Assembly (NCBI RefSeq): GCF_009914755.1
Contig: NC_060933.1
DNA from: the human T2T-CHM13v2.0 reference genome, Homo sapiens
Direction: 5' to 3' (one strand)
Length of the DNA stretch: 64,000 nucleotides
Shown here: piece by piece, positions 12,108 through 31,816 of the stretch
How positions within the stretch are numbered: the stretch's first letter is position 1
How the letters are laid out: each line of letters opens with the position of its first letter
Notes under the pieces: generated by a model
Seen by the model: only the letters and a program-made list of their open reading frames with translations
Told to the model about the DNA's origin: nothing
Databases searched by the model: none
Translations under genes and position numbers: made by a program

Positions 12108-12144
12108 AGTCTTTTAAGTCTTACATTTAACTTTTTTTTTTTAG

Positions 12145-13169
12145 GTCTTATAGTCATGGTTATAGTCCACGTGGGAAAATGGCATATGCTTTATTTCTAT
12201 TAAGTGTTGTCTTATTTATAGGGATTGTAGGTTTTTCTTCAAAACTGTCTCCTATTTATTGAGGCTTAGGGGTAATTATTAGTGGTGCTGTGGGTTGTGG
12301 TATTGTGTTGAATTTTGGTGGGGCTTTCATGGGGTTAATAGTCTTTTTTATTTACTTGGGTGGTATAATGGTTATTTTTGGTTATACTCCAGTGATAGCT
12401 ATTGAGGAGTATCCTGAAACATGAGGGCCAAGTACTGATATTTGAGGGGCCTTATTATTAGGATTATTAATAGAGTTGATACTGGTTTGGTGAATAGTTG
12501 AATATGATGGGGTGGTGATCACGGTTGATTTTAATAGCATAGGGAGTTGATTTAATTTTTGAGGGGGAGGGGTTGATTCATGAGGATTTTGTAGGTGCAG
12601 CTGCCTTGTATAATTATGGGTGTTGGTTGGTGGTTGCTGGTTGATCATTGTTAGTATTTTTGTCGCAATTGAAATTACTCAGGGTAATAGATTAGATAAT
12701 TAATAGTAGAGTTTAGGCCTTTTTGGTCAGATACAGTAATGGAGGCTGAAGTTTGGGTTCGTGAAATGGTTTTTGGTATAGACTTTTCTAGTCAAACTGG
12801 GTCTAGTAGAAGTGAAGCTAGATTTTGGCTTATGAATAGGCTTAAGTCGGGGGGCTGAATGGTGAATTGTAGCTGAATAAAAACCTAGTATACTGGAGAA
12901 GTTAAATGTCTATAATGGGTACTTTAAGGTTGTTAGTTATGAAATTAAGCTCTATTGCTAGTAAGAGACCTAGGGTGGTTACACCTAGGGCTGTGAGCTT
13001 TAGGTGGAGTGGTATAGTTGTTTGGGGGGATGAAGTAGGGATAATACTGTTAGTGATGAGGAATCCGGCGAAGATACTGCCGATTGCTAGGTGCTGAACT
13101 GAGTTAATTCGGAGAGGATTATCATTAATAACAATCAGAATTGTAAAACAAGGTTGTCCTATTACAGCA
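12145..13169 (+). pseudogene. NUMT, inverted block: partial tRNA-Glu, ND6 (12179-~12691, +) and 3' part of ND5 (-)
   Basis: ATGGCATATGCTTTATTTCTATTAAGT matches ND6 start (MAYALFLLSV); reverse-complement ND5 follows up to 13169. Confidence 0.92.
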
Positions 13170-28118: not shown

Positions 28119-31100
28119 TCCAACCAGCACTTTGGCTTTGAAGCCACTGCCTGATGTTGACACTTTGTAGATGTAGTATGACTATTCTTATATGTCTCTA
28201 TCTACTGATGAGGATCCTACTCTTTTAGTATAAAGAGTACCATTGACTTCCAATCAACTAGTTTCGATAATATCTGAAAGATATTAAATAACCTGACACT
28301 AGCCTTAGTAACCGACACCTTACTGGCCCTACTACTACTAATAATTACATTTTTACTTCCACAAATTAATATTTATATAGATAAATCCAGCCCCTATGAA
28401 GGCAGATTTGACCCAATAACCTCCAACTGCCTCCCCTTTTCCATAAAATTCTTCCTGGTAGCCAACACATTTCTCCTCTTAGACTTAGAAATCGCTCTAA
28501 TACTACCCCTGCCATGAGCTATTCAAACAAATTACCTAACAACAATAATCACCACAGCCCTTATACTAGTTATCATTTTAATCCTAGGCTTAATTTACAA
28601 AAGAACTCAAAAAGGGTTAGATTGAATTGAATTGGTAAATAGTTTAAGTCAAAAGAAATGATTTCGATTCATTAGATTATAATAAACCATATTTACCAAA
28701 TGCCCTCTATTTACATCAACATTATATTACCATATACCATATCACTACTGGTAAAATTAATCTATCAAACCCACCTAATATCATCCCTATGTGCCTAGAA
28801 GGCATAATACTGTCAATATTTATCATAATTACCCTTATAACTTTAAATATACATTTTACTCTAGCATCTATAATACCCATTATCCTCCTAGTATTTGCTG
28901 CCTGTGAAGCCGCAGTGGGCCTTGCCTTATTAGTTTCAATCTCCAACACATACGGCCTAGATTACACACAAAATCTAAATTTACTTCAGTGCTAAAAATT
29001 ATTCCGACAATTATGCTGTTACCAATAATATGATTCTCTAAAAATTCTATAATCTGAATTAACATGACCATCCACAGCCTACTTATCAGCCTCATCACCC
29101 TATTGTTTTTTAACCAATTCAACAGTAACTCATCCAACTTCTCACTAGTTTTCTCTTCTGATCTGCTGATGTCACCCCTCCTAATTTTAACAGCCTATTA
29201 CCTTTTATAATCCTAGCAAGCCAATATTAACTGTTCAATGAATCACCCCCACAAAAAAGCTCTATATTTCTATATTGATTTCCCTGCAGATTTTTTAAAA
29301 TTATAGCATTCACAGCCACAGAACTAATTATATTTTATATTTTCTTTGAAGCCACACTAATTCCTACCCTAATTATTATTATCACCCGCTGAGGGAACCA
29401 ACCAGAACGCCTCAATGCAAGCTCATATTTCCTATTGTACACACTAGTAGGGTCCCTTCCTCTACTTGTTACACTTGTCTACACTTTAAATACTTCAGAT
29501 TCTCTAAATATGCTAGTAATGATATTTACTGACCAAGAACTGTTAGCCTCCTTATCCAATAATCTTATATGACTAGCATGTATTATGGCCTTTATAGTAA
29601 AAATAACTCTATTCGGACTTCACCTGTGACTCCCAAAAGCCCATGTAGAAGCCCCTATTGCCGGCTCAACAGTACTTGCAGCGGTACTCCTAAAACTAGG
29701 CGGCTGCGGTATAATACGGCTTACCCTTATCCTCAGCCCCCTAACAGAATATATAGCCTACCCCTTCCTCACACTATCCCTATGAGGGATAGTTATGACA
29801 AGCTCCATTTGTCTACAAACCGATGTAAAATCACTTATTGCCTACTCCTCTGTAAGCCATATACCACTTGTCATCATAGCTCTCCTAATCCAAACCCCTT
29901 GAAGCTTTACAGGTGCCGTCACCCTTATAATTACCCATGGAGTCACTTCATCCCTGTTATTCTGCCTAGCAAATTCCAACTACGAGTGAGTCCAAAACGG
30001 AATCATATACTTACCTGAGGCCTTCAAATACTCCTCCCACTGATATAGCCTCATGATGACTTCTAGCAAATCTCACTAATCTTGCCTTACCCCTACCATT
30101 AATCTAGTAAGGGAACTCTCTGTGATCATGGCTTCATTCTCCTGATCAAACATCACTATTATGCTTACAGGACTTAATATACTAATTACAACCCTCTACT
30201 CCCTACATGTACCAATCACAACACAATGAGGGACACTTACATATTACATTAACAGTTAAACCTTCCTTTATACGAGAAAATACATTAATATTTATACATG
30301 TTACACCTATTCTTCTATTATCCTAAATCCTAAAATTATTATGGGCTTTACATGCTGTAGCTATAGTTTAACCAAAACATTAAATTGTGGATCTAATAAT
30401 AGAAGCCTGCAACTTCTTATCTACCAAGAAAGTATGCAAGAACTGCTAACTCATGCCCCCATGCCTAACAATATGGCTTTCTCAACTTTTAAAGGATTGG
30501 AGTCATCCGTTGGCCTTAGGAACCAAAAACATTGGTGCAACTCCAAAGAAAAGTAACAAATATGTATTTTTCCACTACTATAATAGCCCTAATCGCCTTA
30601 ATCACACCAATTATTACGTTAGTCAACCCCTGCAAAAGAAGATTCATACCCAAATTACATAAAAATAGCCATCACATGCGCCTTCACCATTAGCCTCATC
30701 CCAACGTTTATATATACAGACCAAGAAGTCATTATCTCAAACTGACATTGAATGACAATCCCAACTCTTGAACTCTCACTAAGCTTTAGACTACTTCTCC
30801 ATAATATTTATTCTAGTAGCACTATTTGTTACCTGTAGAATTCTCAATATGATATATAAACTCAGACCCTAACATTAATCAATTTTTCAAATATTTTCCT
30901 CATCACAGTATTCTTCCAATATTCCACCAACAAACTCTTTCAACTCTTTATCGGATGAGAAGGTATAGGAATCATGTCTTTCTTACTAACTGGCTGACAA
31001 TATGGCCGAGCAGATGCTAATACAGCAGCCCTCCAAGCAGTCCTGCACAATCGCATCGGCGATATTGGTTTTATTTTAGTTATAGCATGGTTCCTCTTTT

Positions 31101-31816
31101 CCTCCAACACATGAGAGATTCAACAAGCATTCATTCTAAACCCTACCTCTAATCCCCTTCCATTAATTCGCCTTCTCTTAGCAGCAGCAGGAAAGTCAGC
31201 TAAATTCGGCCTCCATCCCTGACTTCCATCCGCCATAGAAGGCCCAACCCCAGCCTCAGCCCTGCTCCACTCCAGCACTATAGTTGTAGCAGGAGTTTTC
31301 CTGCTCATCCGCTTCTACCCTTTAATAGAAAATAACCTCTGAACCCAAACCTTTACATTATCTCCAGGGGCTGTTACCACCTTATTTACAGCAATCTGCG
31401 CTCTAACACAAAATGATATTTAAAAAATCATAGCATTCTCCACCTCAAGTCAGCTGGGCCTTACGATAGTCACAATTGGCATTAATCAGCCACATCTAGC
31501 ATTCCTTCACATGTGCACCCACACCTTTTTTAAAGCTATATTATTTATATGCTCAGGCTCCATCATCCACAATCTCAATGATGAACAAGATATTTGAAAA
31601 ATAGGACTATTCAAGACTTTACCCTTCACTTCCTCTTCCCTTATTATTGGTAGCCTTGCACTTACAGATATGCCTTTCTTCACAGGCTTTTACTCTAAAG
31701 ACCTTATTATCGAAACCACAAATACTGTCATATACCAACGCCTGAGCCCTTTCTATTACTCTTACTGCCACCTCCTTAACTGCTGGCTATAGTACCCGTG
31801 TTATTTTCTTTGCTCT
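28119..31816 (+). pseudogene. NUMT: end of COX3, tRNA-Gly, ND3, tRNA-Arg, ND4L, ND4, tRNA-His/Ser/Leu, 5' part of ND5
   Basis: ND4[27 protein letters not shown]4 [14 protein letters not shown]5 [14 protein letters not shown]; ends ...TTTGCTCT. Confidence 0.95.

What the first reader, a model, noticed from the sequence alone, without database searches (positions are those of the whole stretch)
12132..31816. NUMT inversion has twin-priming-like geometry, suggesting a reverse-transcribed mitochondrial template
Seen: the forward block (12S to ND5) stops at ...TTCTTTGCTCT (31816). The inverted block's inner end reads TGCTGTAATAGGACAACC on the minus strand from 13169, so ND5 resumes at the same codons with a 4-6 bp overlap. 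One contiguous mitochondrial molecule (12S to tRNA-Glu) was therefore split at one point and its two parts joined in opposite orientation. No D-loop or CYTB is present, and a T11 tract precedes the inverted block. Inference: two cDNAs on one H-strand transcript, one primed from the left target end near tRNA-Glu and one entering at ND5 from the TCF3 cDNA. NUMTs are generally thought to be DNA-derived via NHEJ, so a 13-kb RT-made NUMT would be unusual. tRNA junctions are unprocessed, so the template would be precursor RNA or mtDNA; the sequence alone cannot separate these. The T tract could simply be an expanded tRNA-Glu T run.
Basis: partly seen in the sequence, partly recalled or inferred. Interest (0 to 1): 0.8.

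Follow-up and report, generated by a model that had tools for sequence, protein, structure and literature searches.

The report
Mitochondrial insert inside an L1 chimera
A 13-kb copy of mitochondrial DNA in a JAK2 intron arrived in a single LINE-1-driven insertion together with two gene retrocopies and an L1 tail. Its split-and-flipped layout fits synthesis from both ends of one template, but nothing shows that the template was RNA.

Summary
The forward block (12S to ND5, 13170-31816) and the inverted block (ND5 3' part, ND6, tRNA-Glu; 12143-13169) meet at ND5 codons 430-431 with a 5-6 nt overlap. This was mapped on 7 uninterrupted NUMTs of the same genome and on solved ND5 proteins.

The main new result concerns the context. 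The NUMT is the 5' part of one 25-kb composite bounded by a target-site duplication of about 35 bp (exact 15-mer at 12093 and 37123). Its order is T11, inverted mt block, forward mt block, spliced TCF3 cDNA with A16, spliced IGHE cDNA with an A-rich tail, L1 3' end with poly(A). So the geometry is twin-priming-like at the end of an L1 template-switch chain. The inversion junction carries an AGCA microhomology.

The template stays open. All 18 tRNAs are unprocessed, known RNA-modification sites show no misincorporation excess (1 of 10 tRNA position-9 sites), and the substitution spectrum is ordinary for a NUMT. These favour DNA or an unmodified precursor.

One ambiguous lead favours RNA: the left end can be read as the exact ND5/CYTB RNA-processing site followed by non-templated A's.

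Odds: DNA about 0.55-0.6, RNA about 0.2.

The parts
12093..12131 (+). Left copy of the target-site duplication: AACAGTGAACATTTA, then ..CTTACATT, then TAAC. It contains an exact 9-nt tandem duplication (12104-12121).
   Evidence: The 15-mer occurs exactly twice in the window, at 12093 and 37123. The chance expectation is 0.04, and 0 of 100 shuffles gave 2 matches. Extended alignment. Tandem 9-mer.
12132..12142 (+). T11 tract between the left TSD copy and the inverted mitochondrial block (A11 on the mitochondrial L-sense strand). Its origin is unresolved.
   Evidence: Read. It is absent from the right TSD copy. The T run of tRNA-Glu is only 5-7 nt in the 7 of 7 reference NUMTs.
12143..13169 (-). 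Inverted mitochondrial block A: ND5 from codon 430 to the stop, antisense ND6, and part or (with a 33-nt internal deletion) all of antisense tRNA-Glu.
13165..13175 (.). Inversion junction J2: ND5 (reverse complement) joined to 12S at a (C)AGCA microhomology. Three homopolymer contractions follow it on the 12S side.
   Evidence: The 8 references read CTTCAGCAAACCCTAAAAAGGTTAT; the window reads TTACAGCACCTAAGGTTAT.
13170..31816 (+). Forward mitochondrial block B: 12S (internal start), 16S, ND1 ... ND4, and ND5 to codon 431, with 18 unexcised tRNA genes. About 12.2 kb is mitochondrial.
19783..20080 (.). Later Alu-sized insertion inside CO2. It is not part of the original event.
   Evidence: Query positions 6612-6909 match hundreds of dispersed copies, not NUMTs. 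'Alu' is my naming.
22004..28109 (.). Later 6.1-kb repeat insertion between CO3 and tRNA-Gly/ND3. It is flanked by a duplication of about 9-11 bp of NUMT sequence (ATCACTTTACA).
31817..34499 (+). TCF3 processed cDNA (TCF3P1). It starts in exon 1 of the CpG-island 5' UTR, is spliced, and ends in AATAAA plus A16 (34484-34499).
34500..36013 (+). IGHE processed cDNA (IGHEP2). Its first 100 nt come from 0.76 kb upstream of CH1 and are spliced to CH1. It ends in AATAAA and an (AAAC)n/A tail (35982-36013).
36014..37122 (+). 5'-truncated L1 3' end (ORF2p C-terminal part and 3' UTR) with a poly(A) tail that abuts the right TSD copy.
   Evidence: The fragment 36256-36468 matches ORF2p residues 1064-1130 of 1275, E = 3e-33. 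Tail and junction.
37123..37159 (+). Right copy of the target-site duplication (AACAGTGAACATTTATTGTAGGCTTACATT, possibly through GGGCTAA).

Best explanation
The 25 kb from 12132 to 37122 are one ancient LINE-1-driven insertion into a JAK2 intron, 93 nt past an exon.

Proposed sequence of events:
1. ORF2p nicked the bottom strand at ...ACAGT|AACAGTG and primed on an L1 RNA.
2. The growing cDNA jumped to the poly(A) end of an IGHE transcript, then to the poly(A) end of a TCF3 mRNA, and ran to the 5' UTR of TCF3.
3. Mitochondrial sequence from one molecule bridged the remaining gap to the upstream target end. One strand extended from the TCF3 cDNA end at ND5 codon 431 back to the middle of 12S. 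The other extended from the left target end at the tRNA-Glu side back to ND5 codon 430.
4. The two 3' ends were joined at an AGCA microhomology.

This gives the inverted/forward arrangement, the 5-6 nt overlap and the flanking duplication of about 35 bp.

I think the mitochondrial template was most likely mtDNA. Either two pieces of one broken molecule were captured by microhomology-mediated end joining, or one strand was copied from both sides (ORF2p copies DNA as well as RNA in vitro).

Shown: the anatomy, the junctions and the TSD. Inferred: the single event, the order of steps and the DNA nature of the template. The element has no function now.
For: Single TSD-bounded event:
- An exact 15-mer lies directly before the T11/mt end and directly after the L1 poly(A). 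It occurs only twice in 64 kb; the chance expectation is 0.04.
- The duplication extends to about 35 bp.

Chain of cDNAs in one orientation, each joined at a poly(A) tail:
- TCF3: exon 1 spliced to exon 2 and later exons.
- IGHE: spliced.
- L1: ORF2p residues 1064-1130.
- No second copy of the TCF3 retrocopy exists in the genome, so this is not a duplication of another locus (only self and the parent exons on C19).

One mitochondrial molecule:
- The breakpoints coincide (with 30, 42, 43).
- The two blocks diverge equally.
- The inversion junction has a microhomology.

DNA rather than RNA:
- 18 of 18 expected tRNA genes are unexcised across 12.2 kb.
- Only 1 of 10 sense-strand tRNAs with A/G at position 9 differs from the NUMT consensus, against 67 of 817 (8.2%) at all tRNA positions. 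The list of m1A9/m1G9 tRNAs is from a table passage of PMC8348895, seen.
- The A at 16S position 947 is intact.
- ND5 nt 1374 is kept as A.
- The private substitution rate and spectrum are ordinary among 25 NUMT sequences compared. Window: 5.8%, G>A 62, C>T 144. Collinear chr4 NUMT: 5.3%, 51, 123.
- ORF2p polymerises on RNA or DNA templates 'with approximately equal efficiency', is highly processive, and jumps templates (passages of PMC10830420).
- The standard view is that metazoan NUMTs are DNA-derived (passage of PMC1925129).
Against: - The arrangement is the one class out of three visible two-fragment arrangements that same-strand synthesis predicts. Plain ligation of two fragments gives it only by luck.
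- A 5-6 nt duplication at the split is awkward for a simple break.
- The strand needed as template is L-sense. That is the sense of the abundant H-strand transcripts and not of the displaced single-stranded H strand (my recall of the mtDNA replication model).
- The T11 tract is templated by neither the target nor mtDNA. [quoted passage not shown]
- All modification tests are blind to an unmodified precursor RNA.
- The single-event claim rests on one genome. No empty site or ortholog was seen.
- The bottom-strand nick site (TGTT/AC) matches the L1 endonuclease consensus TTTT/AA only partly.
Confidence: 0.55

Rival explanations
1. One reading: the 13.3 kb were reverse-transcribed by L1 ORF2p from one polyadenylated H-strand RNA that was not yet cut at its tRNAs. 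One cDNA was primed from the left target end on the A tail at the ND5 3' UTR end. The other was started by a template jump from the TCF3 cDNA onto ND5 codon 431. This is twin priming at the end of a template-switch chain.
For: - The geometry, the overlap, the microhomology and the TSD are all as in twin priming. The features are as described in passages of PMC2912911.
- The three other components are cDNAs joined at poly(A) tails.
- Under reading (i) of the left junction, GGTCTTATAGT (12144-12154) is the 5' end of tRNA-Glu (10 of 11, with a 9-mer exact). It is preceded by the spacer. On the L-sense strand it is followed by 9-11 A's where 5 of 5 references with an ARAGORN tRNA-Glu read the CYTB start, ATG or its decayed ATA in L003 (MTNTRK in 4 of the 5, MVNIRK in L007).
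- The ND5-CYTB processing site lies opposite tRNA-Glu (passages of PMC8601606).
- The human ND5 mRNA 3' UTR is antisense ND6 plus antisense tRNA-Glu with a poly(A) tail (passages of preprint 10.64898/2026.03.26.714394).
- The required template sense equals that of H-strand transcripts.
Against: - 18 of 18 tRNAs are unexcised over 12.2 kb while the 3' end would be processed and adenylated. That order of processing is not the usual one (my knowledge).
- The total cDNA from the right primer would be about 17.5 kb.
- There is no excess of changes at m1A/m1G sites and no G>A or other skew.
- Reading (i) needs a 33-nt deletion inside tRNA-Glu. A rival reading fits about equally well: TTTTAGGTCTTA copies the target motif, matching 11 of 12 to the left flank.
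- A screen for other ND5-3'UTR-plus-A-tract ends found no enrichment: 721 matches against 647 for the reversed pattern. The 2 exact hits are not mitochondrial. This screen is weak for old, decayed copies.
Confidence: 0.2
2. Two events: an ordinary NHEJ-type NUMT inserted later (or earlier) exactly at the 5' junction of an existing TCF3-IGHE-L1 chimeric retrocopy, already rearranged when it went in.
For: - The NUMT looks like any other NUMT in content and decay.
- 5' junctions of L1 insertions are end-joining products (passages of PMC2912911).
Against: - The left TSD copy lies outside the NUMT. No TSD copy lies between the NUMT and TCF3.
- So a second event would have had to hit within a few bp of the old junction.
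Confidence: 0.08
3. A collinear NUMT (tRNA-Glu to 12S, antisense to TCF3) was inserted first. The 12S-ND5 part was inverted in place later.
For: It needs only one inversion. Small duplications can arise at staggered inversion breakpoints.
Against: - One inversion breakpoint would have to coincide within about 2 bp with the mitochondrial/TCF3 boundary at 31816/31817.
- No inverted repeats were seen that could drive it.
Confidence: 0.04

Closest known systems
L1 twin priming (5'-inverted L1 and retrocopy insertions; Ostertag and Kazazian 2001, recalled; described in PMC2912911, passages seen)
   Same: - TSD-bounded with a 3' poly(A).
- Two segments of one template in opposite orientation that abut on the template.
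- A small duplication at the split.
- A microhomology at the inversion junction.
   Different: - The template is mitochondrial, not the L1 or mRNA that carries the primed poly(A).
- The 'internal primer' is the 3' end of a three-template cDNA chain, not the target DNA end.
- A T11 tract and messy bases sit at the 5' junction (5'-inverted L1s rarely have extra nucleotides there: 3.9% in PMC2912911).
- An RNA template is not shown.
L1 template-switch chimeric retrogenes (U6/L1 and mRNA/L1 chimeras; Buzdin and colleagues, recalled; PMC4476161 and preprint 10.1101/2025.02.02.635956 seen as listings, the latter searched for terms)
   Same: - Head-to-tail cDNAs of unrelated transcripts with an L1 3' end at the 3' side.
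- One TSD around the whole.
- Joins at the 3' ends (poly(A)) of the acceptor RNAs.
   Different: - There are four components, and the last is 13.3 kb of unprocessed mitochondrial sequence entered at an internal position.
- The terms mitochondri, TCF3, IGHE, JAK2 and NUMT do not occur in the 2025 preprint (0 of 5 terms).
NUMT insertion by end joining at double-strand breaks (PMC2567098, PMC515365, PMC1925129; passages seen)
   Same: - Multi-gene, unprocessed mitochondrial sequence.
- Microhomology at a junction.
- Ordinary neutral decay.
   Different: - Flanked by a long TSD.
- Co-inserted with retrocopies and an L1 tail.
[quoted passage not shown] Here the break looks L1-made.
Complex or concatenated NUMTs with several mtDNA pieces in mixed orientation (Wei et al. 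2022; Ju et al. 2015; both recalled, not read here)
   Same: Two pieces of mtDNA in opposite orientation within one insertion.
   Different: Here the two pieces abut on the mitochondrial genome with a 5-6 nt overlap, and their orientation fits same-strand synthesis from both sides of an L1 integration intermediate.

Membership tests
L1 twin priming | The insertion is flanked by a target-site duplication and ends in a 3' poly(A). | tested here: met
   Exact 15-mer at 12093 and 37123, extended to about 35 bp. The L1 poly(A) abuts the right copy.
L1 twin priming | Two segments of the same template lie in opposite orientation, adjacent on the template, with a small deletion or duplication at the split. 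| tested here: met
   ND5 codons 430-431 are present in both blocks. The overlap is 5-6 nt (with 30, 42, 43).
L1 twin priming | Microhomology at the inversion junction, from annealing of two cDNA 3' ends. | tested here: met
   (C)AGCA is shared by the ND5 reverse complement and the 12S start. The alignment needs three homopolymer contractions, so a 3-nt filler reading is not excluded.
L1 twin priming | The template is RNA (the products are cDNAs). | tested here: inconclusive
   The tRNAs are unprocessed and there is no modification signature. There is a possible poly(A) at the ND5/CYTB processing site, with an equally good rival reading.
L1 twin priming | The target end anneals directly to the template, usually with microhomology and without extra nucleotides at the 5' junction. 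| tested here: not met
   TAAC, T11 and up to 8 ambiguous bases lie between the TSD and secure mitochondrial homology.
L1 template-switch chimera | cDNAs of different RNAs are fused head to tail, with L1 or another poly(A) RNA at the 3' end, under one TSD. | tested here: met
   TCF3 (spliced, A16), IGHE (spliced, A-rich tail) and the L1 3' end are all on the + strand.
L1 endonuclease-dependent insertion | Bottom-strand nick at a TTTT/AA-like site. | tested here: inconclusive
   The pre-insertion site ...TTTACAGT|AACAGTG gives TGTT/AC on the nicked strand. The consensus is as quoted in PMC2912911.
NUMT (nuclear mitochondrial DNA segment) | Nuclear sequence homologous to mtDNA, collinear over several genes including tRNAs of both strands. 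| tested here: met
   The identity to other NUMTs is 74-89%.
NUMT by classical NHEJ | Insertion at a double-strand break without a target-site duplication and without a retroelement partner. | tested here: not met
   A TSD and an L1/retrocopy chain are present.

The most novel reading that the evidence does not exclude
The 13.3-kb NUMT is a true retrocopy. L1 ORF2p, after three template jumps (L1 to IGHE to TCF3), jumped onto a polyadenylated but tRNA-unprocessed mitochondrial H-strand precursor RNA. The left target end primed on that RNA's poly(A) tail at the ND5/CYTB processing site. This would be the first RNA-derived NUMT in an animal and by far the longest L1-made cDNA.
Probability: 0.2. 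Interest if true: 0.9.

Novelty: new variant of a known kind. Interest (0 to 1): 0.62.

Why it matters
NUMTs are held to enter animal genomes as DNA at random double-strand breaks, independently of retrotransposons (PMC1925129, PMC515365; passages seen). This locus shows a large NUMT sharing one target-site duplication with an L1 tail and two retrocopies. So an L1 integration intermediate can be the break that takes up mitochondrial sequence, and 13 kb can be brought in that way.

If the template was DNA, the locus is a natural example of an L1 intermediate being completed by capture or copying of foreign DNA. If it was RNA, the DNA-only rule for animal NUMTs falls.

Either way it suggests a concrete screen: look for NUMTs that share a TSD with retrocopies. 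It also explains why five RefSeq-annotated 'independent' groups of pseudogenes lie side by side in this JAK2 intron.

Tried and rejected
- ARAGORN in its default mode found 0 tRNAs. Mammalian-mitochondrial mode in a script found them.
I then used stop-free stretches.
- The assembly holds no chrM, so no true mtDNA reference was available. I used 31 NUMT loci instead.
I rejected it as the best reading because 8 of the 10 following bases disagree.
- I first guessed that the IGHE 5' piece is the I-epsilon exon. It maps only 0.76 kb upstream of CH1, so I dropped that name.
- Excess divergence of the inverted block, suggested by raw BLAST identities, disappeared when the references were compared among themselves.
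- No APOBEC-like or RT-like mutation skew was found.
- Pfam did not name the L1 fragments (0 of 4). The PDB search did.
- A genome-wide pattern screen for other ND5-3'UTR ends followed by A tracts gave 721 matches against 647 for the reversed control. Both exact hits are non-mitochondrial.
- A donor locus elsewhere in the genome was not found.
- Papers on the exact ND5 mRNA 3' end (Temperley 2010, Slomovic 2005) and the twin-priming paper (Ostertag and Kazazian 2001) are not held. My recollection of a 568-nt ND5 3' UTR is therefore unverified and not used as evidence.
- Literature searches found no description of this composite. They were: IGHEP2/TCF3P1; NUMT with twin priming; NUMT with JAK2; NUMT, TSD, LINE-1 and template switching; immunoglobulin epsilon processed pseudogene and chromosome 9; numts RNA- or DNA-mediated; chimeric retrogene and mitochondrial; numts, L1 endonuclease and TSD. 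Subscription journals and old papers are mostly outside the library.

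
Full report
**What is there.** The window is a JAK2 intron. On the + strand, 93 nt after the exon that ends at 12000, the sequence reads in this order:
- a left flank ending AACAGTGAACATTTA...CTTACATT TAAC;
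- T11 (12132-12142);
- a mitochondrial block in reverse orientation (12143-13169: tRNA-Glu part, ND6, 3' part of ND5);
- a mitochondrial block in forward orientation (13170-31816: 12S from an internal point, 16S, ND1 ... ND4, ND5 5' part);
- GC-rich TCF3 sequence.

ARAGORN in mammalian-mitochondrial mode finds all 18 tRNA genes expected between 12S and ND5, on their proper strands. OriL-sized spacing lies between Asn and Cys. The sequence is therefore unprocessed.

**Checking the breakpoints.** The held assembly has 24 contigs and no chrM. I used other NUMTs of the same genome as uninterrupted references.
- In 7 of 7 references that cross the point (L002-L008) the sequence is ...TTCTTTGCTCT[A/G]ATAGGACAACC....
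- The forward block follows it to ...GCTCT at 31816.
- The inverted block, read on the minus strand from 13169, starts TGCTGTAATAGGACAACC.
- The overlap is 6 nt with one mismatch.
- On the collinear 13-kb chr4 NUMT the tool's own alignments put the forward end at C4:158786369 and the inverted start at C4:158786373.
- At the protein level both blocks encode ND5 residues 430-431 of solved complex I chains.
- The two blocks are equally diverged from the references, with identities of 0.85 for the forward ND5 part and 0.83/0.83 for the inverted parts. The references among themselves give 0.84, 0.83 and 0.82.
- No CYTB or upstream-12S homology is found anywhere in the window.

One mitochondrial molecule, from mid-12S to the tRNA-Glu side, was split once in ND5.

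**The surroundings change the picture.** Downstream of 31816 lie, in order:
- A TCF3 cDNA. Exon 1 of the 5' UTR is spliced to exon 2 and later exons. It ends in AATAAA and A16 at 34484-34499.
- Directly after it, an IGHE cDNA. Its first 100 nt map 0.76 kb upstream of CH1 and are spliced to CH1. It ends in AATAAA and an (AAAC)n/A tail.
- Directly after that, a 5'-truncated L1. The fragment 36256-36468 matches ORF2p residues 1064-1130, E = 3e-33. Its poly(A) ends at 37122.

Immediately after that tail comes AACAGTGAACATTTA. The same 15-mer lies at 12093 just before the T11/mitochondrial end. It occurs only at these two places in the window, with an expectation of 0.04; 0 of 100 shuffles reach two matches. 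The match extends, with small indels, through ...CTTACATT, about 35 bp in all. No TSD copy lies between the NUMT and TCF3.

So T11, NUMT, TCF3P1, IGHEP2 and the L1 tail are bounded by one target-site duplication. The simplest reading is one L1-mediated event: target-primed reverse transcription on L1 RNA, followed by jumps onto the poly(A) ends of two mRNAs. This is the known class of template-switch chimeras.

The genome holds no second copy of the TCF3 retrocopy, so this is not a duplicated locus.

Two later insertions are excluded from the event. One is an Alu-sized element in CO2 (about 19783-20080). The other is a 6.1-kb repeat block (22004-28109) with its own duplication of about 9-11 bp.

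**Geometry.** Take the mitochondrial L-sense strand as the template.
- The bottom strand of the forward block continues the TCF3 cDNA from ND5 codon 431 back to 12S.
- The top strand of the inverted block runs from the left target end at the tRNA-Glu side back to ND5 codon 430.
- Both run 3' to 5' on the same template strand, and the second stops where the first began.

Seen from the minus strand this is the canonical twin-priming layout: an uninverted 3' part next to the flank and an inverted 5' part, abutting with a small duplication. The features are as described in passages of PMC2912911 and PMC12350158.

At the inversion junction the window reads TTACAGCACCTAAGGTTAT. The ND5 reverse complement would read TTAGAGCA... 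and the 8 12S references read CTTCAGCAAACCCTAAAAAGGTTAT. So (C)AGCA is a microhomology between the two 3' ends, as twin priming predicts. Three homopolymer contractions follow it. A reading with 3 filler bases is not excluded.

A later in-place inversion would need one breakpoint within about 2 bp of the mitochondrial/TCF3 boundary. Plain ligation of two fragments gives this arrangement in one of three visible classes. Both are my estimates.

**RNA or DNA template.**
- Ten of the 12 sense-strand tRNAs have A or G at position 9 and are listed as m1A9 or m1G9 carriers in a table passage of PMC8348895. Only tRNA-Val differs from the consensus (A to C). The background is 67 differences in 817 tRNA positions, or 8.2%. 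I corrected the ARAGORN register by one or two bases for five tRNAs by eye.
- 16S position 947 was counted in a reference whose 16S is 1559 nt between the ARAGORN tRNAs. It lies in TAAAT, which is intact in the window.
- ND5 nt 1374 (third base of the alanine codon at residue 458) is A.
- Private substitutions were counted at 9,654 columns against up to 24 other NUMTs. The window gives 5.8% with G>A 62, A>G 104, C>T 144, T>C 93. The chr4 NUMT gives 5.3% with 51, 103, 123, 92. There is no deamination or error signature.

These results fit DNA or a wholly unmodified precursor RNA. They argue against mature or modified RNA. The 12.2 kb with 18 unexcised tRNAs, and a cDNA of about 17.5 kb from the right primer, weigh against RNA on general knowledge. 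ORF2p copies DNA templates about as well as RNA, is highly processive and jumps templates (passages of PMC10830420). So a 'twin-primed' copy of mtDNA is a real third option beside ligation of two mtDNA pieces.

**The left junction is unresolved and matters.** Two better readings exist.

*(i) RNA-end reading.*
- GGTCTTATAGT (12144-12154) is the 5' end of tRNA-Glu. The references read GTTCTTATAGT, and a 9-mer is exact.
- It is preceded by TTAG of the spacer.
- A 33-nt internal deletion between TAGT repeats follows.
- On the L-sense strand the mitochondrial sequence then ends at the spacer before CYTB. It is followed by 9-11 A's where the 5 references with an ARAGORN tRNA-Glu read the CYTB start (MTNTRK in 4 of the 5, MVNIRK in L007).
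- It is also the end of the polyadenylated ND5 3' UTR (passages of preprint 10.64898/2026.03.26.714394).
- Under this reading the inverted block looks like a 5'-truncated retrocopy of ND5 mRNA.

*(ii) Target-copy reading.*
- TTTTAGGTCTTA is a copy of the target motif. The left flank reads TTTTAAGTCTTA (11 of 12) and the right flank reads TTGTAGG-CTTA.
- The left flank is full of short local repeats, including an exact 9-nt tandem duplication.
- Mitochondrial homology then starts at TAGTCATGG inside tRNA-Glu. The T tract is expanded or filler.

I estimate each coincidence at roughly 1 in 1000, and I cannot choose from one genome.

A screen for other ND5-3'UTR ends followed by A tracts gave no enrichment: 721 matches against 647 for the reversed control. 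Both exact hits are non-mitochondrial. Such a screen would miss old, decayed copies, this locus included.

**Verdict.** The twin-priming-like geometry is real and gains strong support from the shared TSD and the L1/retrocopy chain. I did not find this structure described in eight literature searches. The library lacks most subscription and old papers, including the 1982 papers on the epsilon pseudogene, which I only recall.

The claim of a reverse-transcribed template is not supported by any positive test. It stays alive through the template sense, the T11 tract and reading (i). My odds are:
- single L1-driven event with a mitochondrial DNA template: about 0.55;
- RNA template: about 0.2;
- separate NUMT insertion at the old junction: about 0.08;
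- later inversion: about 0.04;
- the rest unassigned.

Orthologous loci in other primates would settle both the single-event question and the left junction.

Noticed in passing
window 34500-34608 and L014 (G000:C14:99852388-99855678): The first 100 nt of the IGHE retrocopy map 0.76 kb upstream of CH1 in the parent locus (85% identity) and are spliced onto CH1. The source was therefore a sterile or cryptic-start epsilon transcript without V(D)J, and not the I-epsilon exon I first assumed.
   Followed up: partly
window 22004-28109: A 6.1-kb repeat block was inserted into the NUMT between CO3 and tRNA-Gly. It is flanked by a duplication of about 9-11 bp of NUMT sequence (ATCACTTTACA). It is a later retroelement insertion; its family was not determined.
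   Followed up: partly
window 19783-20080: An Alu-sized insertion lies inside the CO2 pseudogene. This explains why MTCO2P11 is annotated 300 bp too long.
   Followed up: no
G000:C2:238012816-238013669 (seen): Another NUMT on chromosome 2 carries about 14 tandem copies of a 61-bp piece of ND5 (query positions 3089-3149). This is a minisatellite born from NUMT sequence.
   Followed up: no
window 13501 (tRNA-Val position 9): This is the only one of 10 position-9 sites that differs from the NUMT consensus (A to C; 7 of 7 references have A). One site is within the background rate, but it is the kind of change an RT makes at m1A.
   Followed up: yes
window 12104-12121: An exact 9-nt tandem duplication (TTTAAGTCT twice) lies inside the left TSD copy and is absent from the right copy. 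It is part of a cluster of short local repeats at the 5' junction. These may be templated insertions from end joining.
   Followed up: partly
window 12000-44054: About 25 kb of this 32-kb JAK2 intron is the composite. It carries three sense-oriented AATAAA/poly(A) sites (TCF3, IGHE, L1) and starts only 93 nt from the splice donor, yet JAK2 tolerates it.
   Followed up: no
window 31817-31929 versus L017 (G000:C19): The TCF3 retrocopy lacks two GC-rich repeat stretches present in today's exon 1 (about 22 and 28 nt). These are either later expansions in the parent or deletions in the copy.
   Followed up: no
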